Positions 2,904 to 13,114 of a stretch of DNA of 19,205 nt are shown in pieces. How positions within the stretch are numbered: position 1 is the stretch's first letter; the number at the start of each line of letters is the position of its first letter. Source of the stretch: a virus; UHGV virus genome UHGV-0342274. One strand, 5' to 3'. The notes under the pieces were generated by a model that ran no database searches, was not told the DNA's origin, and saw nothing but the letters and a program-made list of their open reading frames with translations. The translations under genes were made by a program, and so were the position numbers.

Positions 2904-3119
2904 TTACTCTCCCCGTGCAGCCTTACGACGGTCCTCTCTGATTTTGAAATACAGGTTAGTCAGATATGTCAGCAGCCCAAACAGCAGACTCCCCAGCACG
3001 CCTATTGCCGCCCACTGAGACGGGGAAACCCTGTCCAGCAACTGCAGGAACCAGTAGCCCGTTCCCACCGCTGACGTGGTGTATGACACACCTGTTGTGA
3101 TTTTTTCCATCTGGTACAT
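2904..3119 (-). CDS. S: Class II pinholin (S21-like) with dual-start motif
   Basis: 71 aa from ATG at 3119: [71 protein letters not shown]. Two TM segments and the C-terminal [15 protein letters not shown] recalled from P21 S. Met1 and Met4 give the antiholin/holin dual start. The track ORF is extended upstream. Confidence 0.85.
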
Positions 3120-3269
3120 ACCCCGTCTCCCGTTATCCGGAAGCTGACAACAATAAAAAAAGCCACCAGTTAAGTACTGATGGCTCTGATAACTCATGCA
3201 GGCATCTCAGACGACCCACTGACACTACCGGTGAGTTTAACGATACCTTCCATTTGACTGGCTCACTTT

Positions 3270-5138
3270 TTATGATGATGCTGGTGCATTTATCTCCAGC
3301 ACCAGACTTTCTATCTCAACGCCATACGCTGCATTTTTGGTAATATCCGTCAGCGTCAGCGCATTCAGCCCCAGTGTCAGACTGTCTTTTATGACCAGGA
3401 ATGCCGGGCCAGCCACTCCATTCAGTTTCGGAGTAACCGTGGCACTGCCGGCGGTGAACACCAGCTCCAGCGTCTGCCAGTCGTTACTGTAATTCCCGAA
3501 CTCGCCCAACTTTGTGTTTCCTGCTTTCCTGTGATGCATCAGATTCAGTTTGCCGTCTGTGGTCTGGGTGAAGAACGACATCAGGAACGGGTTACCAGTC
3601 CCGGTCATCGCCACGACGTCAGGTAACGCTACATCGGTATACAGATAAATTCCCAGACCGAACTGGTTGTTGGTCAGTGCGCCTGACAGTCGAAACTTAC
3701 AGCTCAGTCTGCCACCCCGTGTCAGCAGGGAGACTGCGTCATCCACCGGATGCATCAGGGACCAAGTTTTATTGCTCTGCTTGGTGATCTTAAATACACC
3801 ACCCGACAACTGAATTCCGCCGTCCTTAATGGTCCAGCCCTGCGCAGCAGCCTCTCCGGCTGTCGGCAACAGGGAGATTGTGCGTACGGATGCATCTTCA
3901 GACGGCCCCGATGGCGTGTCGACGCCGGGCGAGGGTTTGATTTCCGGTGCCTTACCACTGATGAAGGCTGAGGTGCGCCCGGCTGCGTTCAGAATAGCGG
4001 TTGCCATACGATCCGGAATAATGCTCCTGCGCGCCCATGAACTGAAATGTGTCGGGCGGTTTGACGATACCCAATTACCATTACTACGGGATTGCGCGCC
4101 GTAATAACCTGCATCAGCAATATCCGGGTCTTCTGCCGGTAAGTTGGTGGGCGTGTTGTTGCCGTTACCGTCGGTCATGAACGGCACAAAGAAAACGTTG
4201 TCGCTCTCCCTGTTTTTGTATGCGCCGTAGACGGAGTCATACTGTGTGCCGTATGTGTTTTTCCAGTAATACGTCGTGTCGCCACAAATCCACGGTACAA
4301 CTGCAGCACTGCCGCCATGGCACTGCGCGTTAAATCCGGAAAGGTCAGTACGGAACTGCTTCAGCATGGCCGTGAACAGGTCCGGTTGCTGTGCGTAGGT
4401 GGCAGCGCTCATGTCAAATTCGCCCTGCATCCAGCACACCGCCAGCAACACATTTTTCGGGTTCTTCTGTAATGCCGCTTTGGTGCGTGCGATCAGGTCC
4501 TGATATAACGGTTTACCCACACCCCAGCGTGCCGAATCCTGGCTGGCCCCCGTGTCCGCACTGAATGTCCCCTCCGCGCCCTGGGTGAATGCCGAACCAC
4601 CACGACAGCATGGTACCAGCAGGATCCCCGCGTTATTCGGGATATACGGAAGCAGTTTTTTGGCAATATGTAAGCCCTGGCCGACACAGCCGTACTGCCC
4701 TTTGCTCAGGTCTGCCTTCGGATGATTCAGTGCGCTCATATCCTGAACATCATGCAGGCAGTGGTCTGCCGGAATGATGTCGTTAAATGCGCATGCTTTA
4801 CCACCGGGAGTCACTGTGTTGCGACGGGCCAGTTGCTTAATGCGTGGGTGGGGCGCATCGTAAGAATCCGGAAGCGGAAGCCCTTCACCGTAAGCCATGG
4901 CATTGGATTGCCCGGCCAGTACGATGACGTAGTACCACTCCGGCTCAGTTGCACCACTGACGACCACATCACCTTCTGCTGCAATCGCCTGCATCAGGGT
5001 ATAAGGGGTTATGGCCACCGGACTACCAAACGGCTGCCAGCCCTCTTTCAGTTTATGTGTCAGCTTTTCCGCAAGATCTGACGGCGACGCCGCCCTGACA
5101 ACATCATAGTGTTTAAATGCCATGGTTCTTTCCACCAT
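3270..5138 (-). CDS. nanS-p: NanS-p-like sialate O-acetylesterase (DUF1737 N-terminal domain plus SASA/SGNH-type esterase)
   Basis: 622-aa ORF. N-terminus MAFKHYDVVRAASPSDLAEKLTHKLKEGWQPFGSPV (DUF1737-like), then YVIVLAGQSNAMAYGEG (GQSN esterase motif). Sits just upstream of the holin, as in Stx phages. Start may be the ATG at 5123 (MAFKHY) rather than 5138. Confidence 0.75.
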   Translation of the reverse strand: MVERTMAFKHYDVVRAASPSDLAEKLTHKLKEGWQPFGSPVAITPYTLMQAIAAEGDVVVSGATEPEWYYVIVLAGQSNAMAYGEGLPLPDSYDAPHPRIKQLARRNTVTPGGKACAFNDIIPADHCLHDVQDMSALNHPKADLSKGQYGCVGQGLHIAKKLLPYIPNNAGILLVPCCRGGSAFTQGAEGTFSADTGASQDSARWGVGKPLYQDLIARTKAALQKNPKNVLLAVCWMQGEFDMSAATYAQQPDLFTAMLKQFRTDLSGFNAQCHGGSAAVVPWICGDTTYYWKNTYGTQYDSVYGAYKNRESDNVFFVPFMTDGNGNNTPTNLPAEDPDIADAGYYGAQSRSNGNWVSSNRPTHFSSWARRSIIPDRMATAILNAAGRTSAFISGKAPEIKPSPGVDTPSGPSEDASVRTISLLPTAGEAAAQGWTIKDGGIQLSGGVFKITKQSNKTWSLMHPVDDAVSLLTRGGRLSCKFRLSGALTNNQFGLGIYLYTDVALPDVVAMTGTGNPFLMSFFTQTTDGKLNLMHHRKAGNTKLGEFGNYSNDWQTLELVFTAGSATVTPKLNGVAGPAFLVIKDSLTLGLNALTLTDITKNAAYGVEIESLVLEINAPASS

Positions 5139-5383
5139 CTGAAAAATGATTCTTTAAAATACCTGACATGTAATACAGAAAAAACACAAAACCATACCTT
5201 AAATAAAAACCTCATCATCAAGCAGATATGCATGGATAAACTACAAGACGAGATATAAACCACCCTGCATTTAAATAAACAATAAACAACATCAGAAAAA
5301 TAATTCTGCTCTATGGTTTGCAATCAAAAATATCATTTATACTTTTCAGAACATCACTAGCAAGGCATAAACAAGGAAACTAA

Positions 5384-5719
5384 ATGAAGTGGATTGTGAT
5401 TGATACAGTTATCCAGCCATCATGCGGAATATCTTTTTCAGTCATATGGAGTAAAATAAAATTAATAATCTGGTATCAATCGGATGCTTTCTTACCTCCT
5501 GAAAGTATATTTACACTGACTCACACAGGCATCATGCTCAATAACAAAGTGCTACCTGTAACCATTTACAACGTAGTACCATTCAATAAAACATTCTGGA
5601 ATTTAATCAAAAACAGCCAGGAATGCCCTACAAATACAGATAACGTATTGAATGAATGCTTTAATAACCGTTGCACTCTGCAAATATGTCCTTATGGGCT
5701 AAAACAACAAAGTCCATAA
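5384..5719 (+). CDS. Hypothetical Cys-rich 111-aa protein in an AT-rich segment
   Basis: ATG at 5384 with AAGGAA RBS 6 nt upstream. Strongly AT-rich codon usage; several Cys in the C-terminal third ([26 protein letters not shown]). Opposite strand to the late operon. No homology recognised; could be a spurious ORF in AT-rich DNA. Confidence 0.3.
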
Positions 5720-5739
5720 GCAGTTTACTCACATCTGAC

Positions 5740-5775
5740 AAAATCAATATAAACAGCCCCTCCGGAGAGGGGCTG
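5740..5775 (-). terminator. Intrinsic terminator downstream of the tRNA cluster
   Basis: GC-rich 9-bp stem CAGCCCCTC/GAGGGGCTG with loop CGGA at 5754-5775. On the minus strand it is followed by TTTATATTGATTTTG. Confidence 0.5.
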
Positions 5776-6010
5776 GAGTGTGGCGCTATGTGCCATTGCA
5801 TGGTGCCGGGTGCCTCCCGGTGAATTCAGTACCAGCACCTGAATCCGCGATTATCCCATATACCTACTCGCTGATTGCCCCTCCGCACAGGGGGATTCAC
5901 CATGCCAGTTTCTTTTAACAAACTCCCCGCAAACCAGACAACAGTCAACCGCCTAAATTGTGAGACATTTAAAAAAAAGGCCCACAAAAGCGAGCCAGGG
6001 AAAATAAGTG

Positions 6011-6087
6011 TGGCGCGTTGTACTGGATTCGAACCAGTGACCGATTGCTTAGAAGGCAATTGCTCTGTCCGGCTGAGCTAACAACGC
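6011..6087 (-). tRNA. argO: tRNA-Arg (anticodon UCU)
   Basis: Cloverleaf built by hand: acceptor GCGTTGT/ACAACGC, D-arm GCTC...GAGC, anticodon stem ATTGC/GCAAT with loop CTTCTAA, T-arm ACTGG-TTCGAAT-CCAGT, CCA encoded. Third gene of an Ile-Arg-Arg cluster as in Stx phages. Confidence 0.8.
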
Positions 6088-6100
6088 ATGATGCAGATAA

Positions 6101-6177
6101 TGGACCGCCATCGGGGACTTGAACCCCGCGCAACCAGCTTCGAAGGCTGGCGCTCTTTCCTGATGAGCTAATGGCGG
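6101..6177 (-). tRNA. argN: tRNA-Arg (anticodon UCG as read from the loop)
   Basis: Acceptor CCGCCAT/ATGGCGG, anticodon stem CCAGC/GCTGG with loop CTTCGAA, T-arm CGGGG-TTCAAGT-CCCCG, CCA encoded. The symbol is by position in the cluster; the anticodon should be confirmed by software. Confidence 0.75.
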
Positions 6178-6184
6178 TATGTGA

Positions 6185-6260
6185 TGGTGGCCCTTGCTGG
6201 ATTTGAACCAGCGACCTGGCGATTATGAGTCGCTCGCTCTCACCACTGAGCTAAAGGGCC
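6185..6260 (-). tRNA. ileZ: tRNA-Ile2 (anticodon CAU, lysidine type; tRNA-Met alternative not excluded)
   Basis: Acceptor GGCCCTT/AAGGGCC, anticodon loop CTCATAA, T-arm GCTGG-TTCAAAT-CCAGC, CCA encoded. Very close to recalled E. coli ileX sequence. Confidence 0.8.
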
Positions 6261-10516: not shown

Positions 10517-10690
10517 TTATTCCCGAACTACCTTGAAACCGAGTCTTTCCAAGTATTCAATGAATGCCTCAACAGATAACACTACATGATCATCAGGAAT
10601 TAACGCTGTGTAGGTAATACCCCCATTCTCAACGCGCACAGCATAGAGGCCATCTTCACTAAAAATTTCACGTAATTCTTCGATTTTCAT
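10517..10690 (-). CDS. Hypothetical 57-aa protein
   Basis: ATG at 10690 with GGAAGGA RBS about 9 nt upstream: MKIEELREIFSEDGLYAVRVENGGITYTALIPDDHVVLSVEAFIEYLERLGFKVVRE. The track ORF is extended upstream without RBS. Confidence 0.45.
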   Translation of the reverse strand: MKIEELREIFSEDGLYAVRVENGGITYTALIPDDHVVLSVEAFIEYLERLGFKVVRE

Positions 10691-10773
10691 CAACAGAATC
10701 CTTCCAGATAAATAGCACTCCCCCTGTTCGGGGTCCATCCCTCTTCTCCCTGCGCGCTACTTAAGTATTTTTG

Positions 10774-10810: not shown

Positions 10811-10843
10811 GAAAATAAAAACAAAAAACCCGCCGAAGCGGGT
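10811..10843 (-). terminator. Intrinsic terminator at the 3' end of the two-gene cassette
   Basis: Hairpin ACCCGC-CGAA-GCGGGT at 10828-10843; on the minus strand followed by TTTTTTGTTTTTATTTTC. The stop codon of the HTH-peptidase gene is immediately upstream. Confidence 0.7.
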
Positions 10844-10847
10844 ATAC

Positions 10848-11951
10848 TCAAACAATCTGGAAAATATTTCTTGGATTTGTAATAGGTCTGTTGATGGAGA
10901 ACAACTCACGAATTAAATCTTGGCTCAAGCCAGTTTTCATAAGAATTCTTAGCCAGGTTGCATCATCCAGCATTTCAATCGCCTCGGCCAGCATGCCGGG
11001 TTCTTCAGGGCGCAAAAGTTCATCACCAGGTTCAACTCTCGTATACCCTCTGGAATTAAGATGCATATAGCCAGTTCTTGCCTGTTCCTGGGTCAATAAG
11101 CCTAATGCGCTGGCTCGATAAATACACATTTTAAGGCTGATTTTCCATCTAAGTTTAAATTCAACCAGAGCATTCCAGTCGAATTGCTTACCTCGTATTC
11201 GTGGAAATTCTTTAATGAAAGATAACCTGGGAACTAATAAGGCGCTCGAAAAGTGATCGGCTTGTGATTCCGTAAGTTTATCACCTGTCGTTATGCCCTC
11301 ATGCATTACTAAATGCCCTAATTCATGACCTAAATCAGAGCGAAATCTACATATGCTTTTTTTAACATTGTTCCTGATGATAACAGGCCTGTTATTGTGA
11401 ACAGTAAAAGCATCAACACGATCATCGACTCCCGTAACATGCGCAACGATTACCCCTAAACTCTCCGCCAATTTAACCATTGATGATATAGGGCCAAGAC
11501 CTAAATTCCAGGCACGGCGACAATCTTCTGCCACTCGCTCAATATCATTCGGAGTAAGTAATTCAGCCCCTGGGTGCTCCGGTATGTTAACGTCAGGAAA
11601 TTCGATTTCACCTTCAACAGCAGAAATTATAATATTAAGAATCTCAGCCCTGGCCAATACACTATTAGTCAGCGTTTGAGTCCTGGACTTCTTACTCCGA
11701 AAATGGCAGACATCACTTTCCAGAGCGTATTTTCGTTCAGTAAAAAGAAAACTGGACTTAATCATAAGCGCTGAAGATATTAACTCAAGACATTGCTCCG
11801 ATGGCCTGCACCCCTTCTCCAGTTTGCTAACGAATTGCTTTGTCTTGCCAATTTTTTCGGCTAACTCTTCACAAGAAAGCCCAACAGCCATTCTCGCTAG
11901 TTTGAGCTTATCACCCCGATACTCAGTGAAGTTATTCACCTGATGTTCCAT
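10848..11951 (-). CDS. HTH-XRE DNA-binding domain fused to ImmA/IrrE-family (M78, COG2856) zinc metallopeptidase
   Basis: 367 aa from ATG at 11951 (the track begins one codon earlier at GTG). N-terminal HTH (LKLARMAVGLSCEELAEKIGKTKQFVSKLEKG); HEXXH zinc site at DLGHELGHLVMHEG; about 150 aa C-terminal of the peptidase core. Overlaps the upstream gene by about 20 nt. Lower GC than flanks by eye. Confidence 0.75.
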   Translation of the reverse strand: MEHQVNNFTEYRGDKLKLARMAVGLSCEELAEKIGKTKQFVSKLEKGCRPSEQCLELISSALMIKSSFLFTERKYALESDVCHFRSKKSRTQTLTNSVLARAEILNIIISAVEGEIEFPDVNIPEHPGAELLTPNDIERVAEDCRRAWNLGLGPISSMVKLAESLGVIVAHVTGVDDRVDAFTVHNNRPVIIRNNVKKSICRFRSDLGHELGHLVMHEGITTGDKLTESQADHFSSALLVPRLSFIKEFPRIRGKQFDWNALVEFKLRWKISLKMCIYRASALGLLTQEQARTGYMHLNSRGYTRVEPGDELLRPEEPGMLAEAIEMLDDATWLRILMKTGLSQDLIRELFSINRPITNPRNIFQIV

Positions 11952-12582
11952 CACTGCTCACATCCAAATCTTTATCCTTCGTACGCCGACGAAGAGGCAC
12001 CTTATTAATCTCCGCTTCGTCAGGGAGTGTGTTATAATCAAGAGGCATAAGCGGCATCGATGCTGTAGATTGATGAGAAACTATACTAATCTGAGCACCA
12101 TAAGTATTAAATCCAACAAGAGCTACCTCCCAACGAGGCAGTGTGGACTCTAATTCACCATCGCCCTCTTCGGATAAAAAAGGCTCAGCTATGACTCGCC
12201 ATGTAATATCTTGCTCAGCCTCAACATCACCAAACAATGAGAGCTGCTCATACTCTACTTTATTTCGACGCAGACGATGTTTCTTTTTGGGGTTATTAAT
12301 GCAATCTTTGGTAAATTGTAGCGGAACTTTATTTAAAGCAACTACATAGTCCAACCCCTTGGAAATCATCTCAAGGCCAGGAATTGCATCTTCATTTTGA
12401 ATAAGATGATTTCTGACCCAATCATAAGCCCTTACACCTTCAGACCAGTTGCTGTCTAATGCGTGCTTATGATAGTACAGCTGCTCAAGTACGTTAGCGA
12501 TCTCCGCCAACAAGTGGCGAACATAGTTTTCAGCAAGATAAGGTTGAAATTCCCAACAAGGAGCTAACTGATTTTCATTCAT
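11932..12582 (-). CDS. Hypothetical 216-aa protein, first gene of the cassette
   Basis: ATG at 12582, no strong SD but AT-rich leader. Acidic C-terminal tail. No domain recognised. Co-oriented with and overlapping the HTH-peptidase gene. Confidence 0.55.
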   Translation of the reverse strand: MNENQLAPCWEFQPYLAENYVRHLLAEIANVLEQLYYHKHALDSNWSEGVRAYDWVRNHLIQNEDAIPGLEMISKGLDYVVALNKVPLQFTKDCINNPKKKHRLRRNKVEYEQLSLFGDVEAEQDITWRVIAEPFLSEEGDGELESTLPRWEVALVGFNTYGAQISIVSHQSTASMPLMPLDYNTLPDEAEINKVPLRRRTKDKDLDVSSDGTSGE

Positions 12583-12611
12583 TTCAAGTTTCGCTTTTTT
12601 TAGAATTCGTA

Positions 12612-12646
12612 AACCACATATTTTCGCATTTTTCTATTTTTGTCAA
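12612..12646 (-). promoter_or_regulatory. Candidate cassette promoter
   Basis: Perfect -35 TTGACA (plus-strand TGTCAA at 12641-12646), 17-nt spacer, weak -10 AAATAT; about 30 nt upstream of the 216-aa start. Confidence 0.3.
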
Positions 12647-12654
12647 CCAGACTA

Positions 12655-12678
12655 ATGCAAAAACCCGCCGAAGCGGGT
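12655..12678 (-). terminator. Intrinsic terminator downstream of hokD; second copy of the cassette-flanking hairpin
   Basis: Same core AAAAACCCGCCGAAGCGGGT as at 10821-10843; on the minus strand followed by TTTTTGCAT. Confidence 0.6.
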
Positions 12679-12747
12679 TAAGTGCGGGTGCGTTGAGGAT
12701 GCCTGGCACATCAGAGGTGGCGGGAGATTACTCCCCCGCCGGGTCTC

Positions 12748-12903
12748 TTACTCCTCAGGTTCGTAAGCTGTGAAGACAGCGACCTCCGTCTGGCCGGTTC
12801 GGATTCGTACCTCGCAGAGGTCTTTCCTCGTTACCAGTGCCGTCACAATGACGGTTAAACAGATGACGATCAGGGCGATTAGCATCGCCTTTTGCTGCTT
12901 CAT
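12748..12903 (-). CDS. hokD: Hok/Gef-family type I toxin (HokD/RelF-like)
   Basis: 51 aa from ATG at 12903: MKQQKAMLIALIVICLTVIVTALVTRKDLCEVRIRTGQTEVAVFTAYEPEE, matching HokD as I recall it. The track ORF extends in frame 19 codons upstream (MLYTRRLASYVPKGKEKQA). Confidence 0.85.
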   Translation of the reverse strand: MKQQKAMLIALIVICLTVIVTALVTRKDLCEVRIRTGQTEVAVFTAYEPEE

Positions 12904-13114
12904 AGCCTGCTTCTCCTTGCCTTTCGGCACGTAAGAGGCTAACCTACGTGTGTAGAGCATAGATATGGCCTCAGATTAATGTTAAGCGTCTTGCCGGACG
13001 CGTAATGTTAACTGGGGCTTTTCTCTATCTGCCTTTTGGTGTTCATGCCTGAGACAGATAGCCTCAAGCACCCGCTGCAATTCTACTTAACTCTCCTTTT
13101 CCCGCAAACCGTTT

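What the first reader, a model, noticed from the sequence alone, without database searches (positions are those of the whole stretch)
10811..12690. Terminator-bracketed, low-GC two-gene moron: unknown 216-aa protein plus HTH-XRE/ImmA-IrrE metallopeptidase fusion
Between hokD and the YdfU/RusA/Q block sits a self-contained unit on the minus strand: a candidate promoter with a perfect TTGACA -35, a 216-aa protein with no recognisable domain, an overlapping 367-aa protein that fuses an XRE helix-turn-helix to an M78 (ImmA/IrrE, HEXXH) zinc peptidase plus a C-terminal domain, then a strong intrinsic terminator. The unit looks lower in GC than its flanks and is bounded on both sides by the same terminator hairpin, which suggests horizontal acquisition as a cassette. 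HTH plus ImmA/IrrE modules are known as signal-responsive protease switches (ImmR/ImmA, IrrE). Coupling one to an uncharacterised partner inside a prophage fits a candidate phage-defence or superinfection-exclusion system, or a non-SOS induction switch. I do not recognise it as any named system.
Basis: partly seen in the sequence, partly recalled or inferred. Interest (0 to 1): 0.85.

Follow-up and report, generated by a model that had tools for sequence, protein, structure and literature searches.

The report
RosmerTA toxin-antitoxin cassette in prophage
The two genes are a catalogued RosmerTA-type toxin-antitoxin (candidate anti-phage) pair carried as a small mobile cassette in an E. coli prophage; the family is already named, but what this toxin type does is still unknown.

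Summary
There are two overlapping minus-strand genes of 216 aa and 367 aa. The 367-aa protein carries an XRE helix-turn-helix, an M78 peptidase domain with HELGH, and a C-terminal region. The unit has 41.5% GC against 49.1% elsewhere, a TTGACA promoter candidate, and an exact 20-nt terminator hairpin on each side.

The claim that it matches no named system does not hold. PADLOC calls the 367-aa protein RmrA (E 6e-105) and the 216-aa protein RmrT (model PDLC03929, E 5e-25). That pair is RosmerTA (Millman 2022).

The window is 100% identical to E. coli CFSAN061761. The cassette is in 232 of 5426 complete E. coli genomes. Sampled prophages without it have hokD next to rem; in the one aligned, a single copy of the hairpin sits between them, which defines a 1835-bp insertion.

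The pairing of this RmrT type with the same RmrA subtype recurs in 10 loci (14 places) sampled from other genera and mobile elements.

Verdict: ordinary and already catalogued. The open questions are the toxin's activity and the trigger.

The parts
12659..12679 (-). Upstream copy of the terminator hairpin. This is hokD's own terminator and forms the left junction of the cassette.
   Evidence: Terminator scan. Fold energy -15.1 kcal/mol, z -3.6. Exact 20-nt repeat. The aligned empty site in strain SCU-102 (L002) has this hairpin once, between hokD and rem.
12583..12650 (-). Promoter and leader region. It holds -35 TTGACA (12646-12641), a 17-nt spacer and -10 AAATAT (12623-12618). Two GGTTKAC motifs lie 33 nt apart (12648-12642 and 12615-12609); they are candidate operator sites for the RmrA HTH.
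   Evidence: Read from the sequence. This stretch is 85-91% identical across three other genera, against 64-82% for the coding DNA and 45-62% at third codon positions. The consensus scan did not list it because the -10 matches 3 of 6. The operator role is inferred.
11932..12582 (-). rmrT: a 216-aa predicted toxin (WP_001004956.1). It is soluble, acidic (pI 4.9) and has no transmembrane segment.
10848..11951 (-). rmrA: a 367-aa predicted antitoxin (WP_000401168.1). It has an N-terminal XRE HTH, an M78 (ImmA/IrrE) Zn-peptidase domain with HELGH at 209-213 and the ESQADHF...LLVP motif, and a C-terminal region.
   Evidence: PADLOC RmrA PDLC03943, E 6.2e-105, plus 13 further RmrA models. Pfam HTH_3 and Peptidase_M78. 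PHROG 2439, E 8e-123. 29% identity over about 300 aa to the experimentally verified RmrA of E. coli OLC-716. It overlaps rmrT by 20 nt.
10820..10843 (-). Downstream intrinsic terminator of the cassette. It is the second copy of the same hairpin, followed by a T-run.
   Evidence: Terminator scan. Fold energy -10.9 kcal/mol. Exact repeat. The same CCCGCTTCGGCGGG hairpin follows rmrA in a Buttiauxella prophage that has no upstream copy.

Best explanation
This is a RosmerTA-type two-gene toxin-antitoxin module carried as a 1.8-kb moron in the nin region of a Qin-like lambdoid prophage of E. coli.

Shown by the analysis:
- Both proteins match RosmerTA models (RmrT, RmrA).
- The two genes overlap by 20 nt.
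- The cassette carries its own conserved promoter-like region and its own terminator.
- It is an optional insertion between hokD and rem.
- The same toxin type is paired with the same antitoxin subtype in many different mobile elements.

Inferred from the literature on related systems:
- RmrT is toxic when it is not held in check.
- RmrA neutralises RmrT, and probably also represses the operon through its helix-turn-helix at the conserved GGTTKAC repeats.
- Neutralisation may need ClpX/ClpP, as it does in E. coli E101, S. pneumoniae RipAB and Pectobacteriaceae.
- Phage infection, or another stress, disturbs RmrA. By analogy with IrrE, ImmA and CapP, this could happen through signal-activated cleavage by the M78 peptidase. 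RmrT is then released and stops the cell, aborting the infection, which protects the lysogen and the prophage.

The activity of this RmrT type is unknown. It is not a membrane toxin, because it has no transmembrane segment. The model weakly resembles a restriction-endonuclease-like fold, so a nucleic-acid target is the best guess, held with low confidence.

The confidence of 0.8 applies to the classification as a RosmerTA toxin-antitoxin module. I put the abortive-infection defence mechanism at about 0.5 and the nuclease-like activity of the toxin at about 0.3.
For: - Classification: PADLOC gives RmrA 6.2e-105 and RmrT 4.6e-25. All 58 family members hit RmrT model PDLC03929.
- Domains: HTH_3, Peptidase_M78 and HELGH. 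RmrA is 29% identical to the verified RmrA.
- Conserved pairing: every sampled place (14 places, 10 distinct loci) has the toxin upstream of an HTH/M78 gene, which overlaps the toxin gene in most of them (two calls start 65-70 nt downstream). The six partners scanned against PADLOC were all RmrA subtype PDLC03943.
- Optional cassette: it is present in 232 of 5426 complete E. coli genomes. The aligned empty site (strain SCU-102) holds a single hairpin.
- Foreign composition: 41.5% GC against 49.1%.
- Regulatory region: it is more conserved than the coding DNA.
- Literature: Millman 2022 describes RosmerTA as a defence system in which the rmrA deletion could not be obtained. The phage Kita RosmerTA defends against some BASEL phages. 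RipAB is a Rosmer TA whose antitoxin action depends on ClpX. A related E. coli E101 prophage TA makes clpP essential. clpX is essential only in the Pectobacteriaceae strains that carry RosmerTA.
Against: - No experiment exists on this RmrT type. PADLOC's RmrT models are largely built by association with RmrA.
- The toxin is unrelated in sequence to the verified E. coli OLC-716 RmrT (hhalign probability 0.3%).
- It has no transmembrane segment, unlike the Kita toxin.
- RosmerTA relatives have functions other than defence, such as competence induction by RipAB. Defence is therefore not guaranteed here.
- The -10 element is weak, at 3 of 6.
Confidence: 0.8

Rival explanations
1. It is an addiction or stabilisation module. 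The pair acts mainly as a classical toxin-antitoxin that penalises loss of the prophage or cassette. Any phage defence would be incidental or absent.
For: - It sits directly next to another TA locus, hok/sok.
- Antitoxin genes of RosmerTA systems are essential in Tn-seq screens, and the rmrA deletion could not be obtained. Both fit addiction.
- It rides on several kinds of mobile element, including a Tn7-like transposon.
Against: - Two RosmerTA systems tested so far did protect against phages.
- The cassette occupies moron positions typical of prophage accessory or defence cargo, including the Q-holin gap in Serratia.
- Addiction and defence are not mutually exclusive.
Confidence: 0.25
2. It is a prophage induction or anti-repressor switch of the ImmR/ImmA, IrrE/DdrO or CapH/CapP kind. 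On this reading the HTH-peptidase regulates prophage or host genes in response to DNA damage, and the 216-aa protein is a regulated effector or co-factor rather than a toxin.
For: - The M78 peptidase domain and the XRE HTH are the same building blocks as in those switches.
- There are weaker PADLOC hits to CapP (1.6e-14) and CapH (1.5e-4).
Against: - The HTH and the peptidase are fused in one protein.
- The best matches, by 50-90 orders of magnitude, are full-length RmrA models.
- The cassette is absent from most related prophages, which therefore do not need it.
- It lies in the nin region, about 8 kb from the prophage's own repressor region (YdaS/YdaT and the HTH genes).
- The same pair occurs in non-phage elements.
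Confidence: 0.05
3. It is a decaying remnant. The cassette would be a non-functional passenger in a cryptic prophage.
For: - The neighbouring rem-like gene is annotated as a pseudogene fragment in RefSeq.
- Qin-like prophages are often defective (my own knowledge, not tested here).
Against: - Both ORFs are intact.
- The identical toxin protein heads a cluster of 413 member sequences.
- 211 records match the 2.8-kb query (cassette plus flanks) at 99% identity or more.
- The gene overlap and the regulatory region are conserved across genera.
Confidence: 0.05

Closest known systems
RosmerTA (RmrT/RmrA), verified instance from E. coli OLC-716 (Millman et al. 2022)
   Same: - Two-gene operon with the toxin gene first.
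- The antitoxin is about 370 aa, with an XRE HTH, an M78 Zn-peptidase domain and a C-terminal region. It is 29% identical over 300 aa.
- Both proteins are recognised by PADLOC RosmerTA models.
   Different: - The toxin is unrelated in sequence (BLASTP finds nothing; hhalign probability 0.3%).
- The antitoxin is a distant relative, not an orthologue.
- No phenotype has been measured for this instance.
RipAB (Spr1630/Spr1629) of Streptococcus pneumoniae, a Rosmer-family TA
   Same: - The antitoxin architecture is the same. NCBIfam's 'spr1629 family repressor/antitoxin' model aligns end to end (E 1.5e-45).
- It suggests a testable dependence on ClpX.
   Different: - The score of 155.9 bits is far below the model's equivalog cut-off of 335.
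- RipA targets the DnaN sliding clamp and induces competence. No similarity between RipA and this toxin was tested or is known.
Gordonia phage Kita RosmerTA (Ernits et al. 2023)
   Same: It is phage-borne, and an ImmA-type antitoxin is paired with an orphan toxin.
   Different: The Kita toxin has a C-terminal membrane segment and depolarises the membrane. This toxin has no hydrophobic segment (maximum 19-aa Kyte-Doolittle hydropathy 0.84) and is acidic and soluble.
ImmR/ImmA (ICEBs1), DdrO/IrrE (Deinococcus) and CapH/CapP (CBASS) repressor-protease switches
   Same: - The M78/COG2856 HEXXH peptidase works together with an XRE helix-turn-helix.
- There are weak PADLOC hits to CapP and CapH.
- These switches are the likely template for how a signal is turned into proteolysis.
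   Different: - In those systems the repressor and the protease are separate proteins that control transcription of other genes.
- Here they are fused, paired with a toxin, and score far better as RmrA.
PD-(D/E)xK restriction-endonuclease-like fold (for example NaeI)
   Different: - Sequence identity is 8%.
- Foldseek finds no match.
- The canonical D...(D/E)xK residues are not conserved in the family. The nearly invariant residues are D43 and E110 instead.
- Inositol monophosphatases score similarly.

Membership tests
RosmerTA defence/TA system | The antitoxin RmrA has an N-terminal XRE HTH and an M78/COG2856 Zn-peptidase domain and is matched by RmrA profile models. | tested here: met
   PADLOC RmrA PDLC03943 at E 6.2e-105 over residues 11-350, and 14 RmrA models in all. 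Pfam HTH_3 and Peptidase_M78 above cut-off. HELGH at residue 209.
RosmerTA defence/TA system | An adjacent partner gene belongs to a recognised RmrT toxin family. | tested here: met
   PADLOC RmrT PDLC03929 at E 4.6e-25 over residues 7-209. All 58 aligned relatives hit the same model, best E 3e-72.
RosmerTA defence/TA system | The two genes form one operon, and their pairing is conserved across unrelated genomic contexts. | tested here: met
   The genes overlap by 20 nt. The toxin is followed by an HTH/M78 gene in all 14 sampled places (10 distinct loci), which include lambdoid and P22-like prophages, an integrase-associated island and a Tn7-like element; the two genes overlap in most, with two antitoxin calls starting 65-70 nt downstream. 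All six partners scanned against PADLOC were RmrA subtype PDLC03943.
RosmerTA defence/TA system | RmrT is toxic and RmrA neutralises it. | not testable with these tools
   Needs expression assays. The only support is indirect: related systems behave this way.
RosmerTA defence/TA system | The system protects against phage infection. | not testable with these tools
   Needs plaque assays. Protection has been shown only for two RosmerTA systems that carry different toxins.
ImmR/ImmA-type induction switch of a mobile element | A separate XRE repressor gene lies next to a stand-alone M78 protease in the element's immunity or integration module, and the element needs it for induction. | tested here: not met
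   The HTH and the peptidase are in one 367-aa polypeptide. The cassette lies in the nin region between hokD and rem, away from the repressor region. It is absent from most related prophages.
PD-(D/E)xK nuclease superfamily (for RmrT) | The protein has the restriction-endonuclease-like alpha-beta-beta-beta-alpha-beta core fold. | tested here: inconclusive
PD-(D/E)xK nuclease superfamily (for RmrT) | The catalytic D...(D/E)xK motif on strands 2-3 is conserved. | tested here: not met
   D78, at the start of strand 2, is replaced by N, G, H, Q, T, A or Y in many members. Strand 3 reads VP-x-[RQK]-F. Only D43 and E110 are nearly invariant.
Membrane-depolarising RmrT (Kita type) | The toxin has a predicted transmembrane segment. 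| tested here: not met
   The maximum 19-residue Kyte-Doolittle hydropathy is 0.84 and the pI is 4.9.
spr1629 (RipB) antitoxin equivalog | The score reaches the NCBIfam NF052239 cut-off of 335 bits. | tested here: not met
   155.9 bits, E 1.5e-45. This makes it a homologue, not an equivalog.

The most novel reading that the evidence does not exclude
The RmrT type encoded here is a small, compact family: only 65 representative clusters among 1.84 billion proteins. It may be a new enzymatic toxin built on a degenerate restriction-endonuclease-like scaffold, with a non-canonical acidic site (D43/E110). It would act on nucleic acid or a nucleotide. It would be held in check by an HTH-M78 antitoxin whose action depends on ClpX/ClpP and that is switched off by a phage cue. 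If so, working out this pair would give the first mechanism for a soluble RosmerTA toxin in E. coli, and for how the fused HTH-peptidase senses infection.
Probability: 0.3. Interest if true: 0.45.

Novelty: already known. Interest (0 to 1): 0.22.

Why it matters
As a discovery it matters little. The pair belongs to a named defence/TA family and standard defence-annotation tools would call it. RefSeq, however, still labels the two genes only 'helix-turn-helix domain-containing protein' and 'hypothetical protein'.

Its residual value is practical:
- It is a clean, 1.8-kb, natively bounded RosmerTA cassette from E. coli, with its own promoter and terminator.
- It is present in about 4% of complete E. 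coli genomes.
- Its toxin is soluble and uncharacterised.

That makes it a convenient model for three open questions about RosmerTA: what the toxins do, how the HTH-M78 antitoxin neutralises them, and why ClpX/ClpP becomes essential in carrier strains.

Tried and rejected
- Pfam and NCBIfam on the 216-aa protein gave nothing. A Pfam scan of all 58 relatives gave only scattered chance hits.
- Sequence searches of the PDB were uninformative. For RmrA only the HTH matched. For the RmrT profile there was one hit at E 0.24.
- Foldseek against the PDB gave no meaningful match. The afdb50 library was unavailable.
- No homology to the verified RmrT of E. coli OLC-716 was found by BLASTP or hhalign.
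- The cassette and RmrT are absent from the INPHARED phage collection by megablast and tblastn.
- The RefSeq accessions of the two proteins appear in no paper in the library.
- I could not retrieve the E. coli E101 toxin (WP_001179380.1) or RipA to compare with this RmrT.
- A strain with an IS element near the cassette (UTME-9) turned out to have the IS outside it, next to hokD.
- The induction-switch reading and the pseudogene reading were considered and rejected; the reasons are given under the rival explanations.

Full report

Yes. The minus strand carries a 216-aa ORF at 11932-12582 and a 367-aa ORF at 10848-11951. The two overlap by 20 nt. RefSeq annotates the same two genes in an identical genome.

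The 367-aa protein matches Pfam HTH_3 (residues 16-62) and Peptidase_M78 (residues 176-281), both above the curated cut-offs. It has HELGH at residue 209, followed by the ESQADHF...LLVP motif typical of ImmA/IrrE peptidases. The 216-aa protein matches nothing in Pfam or NCBIfam.

Terminator-like hairpins lie at 10843-10828 and 12679-12662. They fold at -10.9 and -15.1 kcal/mol. They share an exact 20-nt repeat, AAAAACCCGCCGAAGCGGGT, at 10824-10843 and 12659-12678.

The unit is 41.5% GC against 49.1% for the rest of the window. It is the lowest of all 1815-bp windows.

The promoter candidate is TTGACA (12646-12641), a 17-nt spacer, then AAATAT (12623-12618). The -10 is weak, so the consensus scan did not report it. 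Conservation supports it, however. The 68 nt before the start codon are 85-91% identical in Enterobacter, Serratia and Buttiauxella. The coding DNA is 64-82% identical, and third codon positions are 45-62% identical. Two GGTTKAC motifs lie exactly 33 nt apart in this stretch.

**2. Where the window comes from and what bounds the unit**

The region is 100% identical to the chromosome of E. coli strain CFSAN061761. It lies in a Qin-like lambdoid prophage, between hokD/sok and a rem-like remnant, DUF968 (YdfU), RusA and an antiterminator.

At least 80% of the 2.8-kb query is present in 232 of 5426 complete E. coli genomes. In many of the remaining hits listed, hokD lies next to rem. An alignment with one such empty site (strain SCU-102) shows a single copy of the hairpin between them. 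The cassette is therefore a 1835-bp insertion whose two junctions fall in the repeated hairpin.

The same hairpin follows rmrA in a Buttiauxella prophage that has no upstream copy. In an Enterobacter prophage a related hairpin follows rmrA. So the downstream hairpin belongs to the cassette and the upstream one belongs to hokD. Insertion by recombination at this short homology is a reasonable inference.

**3. What it is**

Against PADLOC, the 367-aa protein hits 14 RmrA models (best PDLC03943, E 6.2e-105, nearly full length). The 216-aa protein hits RmrT model PDLC03929 (E 4.6e-25). RmrT plus RmrA is the RosmerTA system of Millman et al. 2022. [quoted passage not shown]

The antitoxin is 29% identical over about 300 residues to the verified RmrA from E. 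coli OLC-716. The toxin is unrelated to the verified RmrT. That fits the known diversity of RmrT toxins.

PHROGs also holds both families: 2439 ('transcriptional regulator', E 8e-123) and 5786 (unknown function, E 8e-85). NCBIfam's spr1629 antitoxin model aligns end to end but scores below its equivalog cut-off.

**4. The toxin family and its partner**

A word-indexed search found only enterobacterial relatives at 53-100% identity. An exhaustive profile search of 1.84 billion representative proteins found 65 clusters at E <= 0.001, nearly all about 200 aa long.

All 58 aligned members hit PADLOC RmrT PDLC03929. In each of the 14 places (10 distinct loci) I sampled, the toxin gene is followed by an HTH/M78 gene, which overlaps it in most places. 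The six partners I scanned were all RmrA subtype PDLC03943.

The contexts differ:
- the nin region of lambdoid prophages (Enterobacter, Buttiauxella, Xenorhabdus);
- the gap between Q and the holin in Serratia prophages;
- next to a cI-like repressor in P22-like elements;
- an integrase-associated island;
- the cargo of a Tn7-like transposon.

This is the behaviour of a self-contained mobile two-gene module. Neither the cassette nor the toxin is found in the collection of sequenced phage isolates.

**5. What the toxin might do**

RmrT is acidic (pI 4.9) and has no hydrophobic segment. It is therefore not a membrane toxin like the phage Kita RmrT.

With the 58-sequence alignment, AlphaFold2 gives a confident model (pLDDT 85.3, pTM 0.75). 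It has two long helices followed by a mixed sheet, and a disordered C-terminal tail.

I treat a nuclease-like fold as a lead, not a finding.

**6. How it most likely works**

Shown: the classification, the operon structure, the conserved pairing, the optional-cassette status and the constrained regulatory region.

Inferred from related systems:
- RmrT is toxic.
- RmrA neutralises it, and probably represses the operon through its HTH.
- Neutralisation may need ClpX/ClpP. A related prophage TA makes clpP essential in E. coli E101. RipB action depends on ClpX in S. pneumoniae. clpX is essential only in the Pectobacteriaceae strains that carry RosmerTA.
- Phage infection or stress inactivates RmrA and frees the toxin, giving abortive infection.

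The M78 peptidases IrrE, ImmA and CapP cleave XRE repressors when activated (also established knowledge). They suggest how a signal could be transduced here, but this is analogy only.

**7. Rival explanations**

- A pure addiction role is plausible and is not exclusive of defence.
- An induction-switch role is unlikely. The HTH is fused to the peptidase, the cassette is dispensable for related prophages, and it lies far from the immunity region.
- Decay is unlikely given the intact ORFs, a cluster of 413 member sequences for the identical toxin, and 211 records that match the 2.8-kb query (cassette plus flanks) at 99% identity or more.

**8. Verdict**

The interpretation as a defence or TA candidate is reasonable. 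The claim of an unnamed system is wrong: this is an already catalogued RosmerTA module.

What remains unknown is the activity of this toxin type and the trigger. Interest is low to modest.

Noticed in passing
window 5745-5934 (-): There is a full-length match to the Rfam sRNA family STnc100 (132 bits, E 2e-29). It lies in the lowest-GC part of the window (33-38% GC around 5200-5800), where the identical RefSeq record annotates only a small pseudogene fragment.
   Followed up: no
window 6011-6260 (-): ARAGORN and Rfam both find three tRNA genes: Arg-TCT, Arg-TCG and a CAT-anticodon tRNA. The RefSeq feature list for the identical sequence shows only two (Arg and Ile), and a 'DUF3927' CDS reaches into the position of the third.
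   Followed up: partly
window 12748-13073 (-): A complete hok/sok type I toxin-antitoxin locus lies immediately upstream of the cassette: hokD at 12748-12903 and the Rfam sok match at 12898-13073. Two unrelated TA modules are therefore adjacent.
   Followed up: partly
window 12583-12650 (-): The rmrT leader consists of two 33-nt units, identical at 20 of 33 positions. Each unit starts with GGTTKAC and contains AAAAA-x-GCGAAA. The stretch is more conserved between genera than the coding sequence, so it is a possible tandem operator for RmrA.
   Followed up: partly
L008-L010 (Serratia prophages) about 3000-5950; L016 1-4205: The same RmrT/RmrA pair occupies the gap between the antiterminator Q gene and the holin gene in Serratia prophages. 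From my own knowledge, not tested here, that is where Stx phages carry their toxin genes. In a metagenomic contig the pair follows Mu-transposase, TniB and TniQ genes, like the cargo of a Tn7-like transposon.
   Followed up: no
window 10517-10738 (-): A 73-aa rem-like ORF lies just downstream of the cassette. An identical contig in another collection gets a Pfam Rem hit, whereas RefSeq annotates only a 75-nt pseudogene fragment here.
   Followed up: no
RmrT residues 175-216 (window 11932-12060): The C-terminal tail of RmrT is predicted to be disordered, yet it carries a motif conserved among enterobacterial relatives: P-x-EAEI...LRRR-x-K-D-x-D-x-DV-x-x-NGTSG. It could be a docking or cleavage site for RmrA or a Clp degron. 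This is pure speculation.
   Followed up: no
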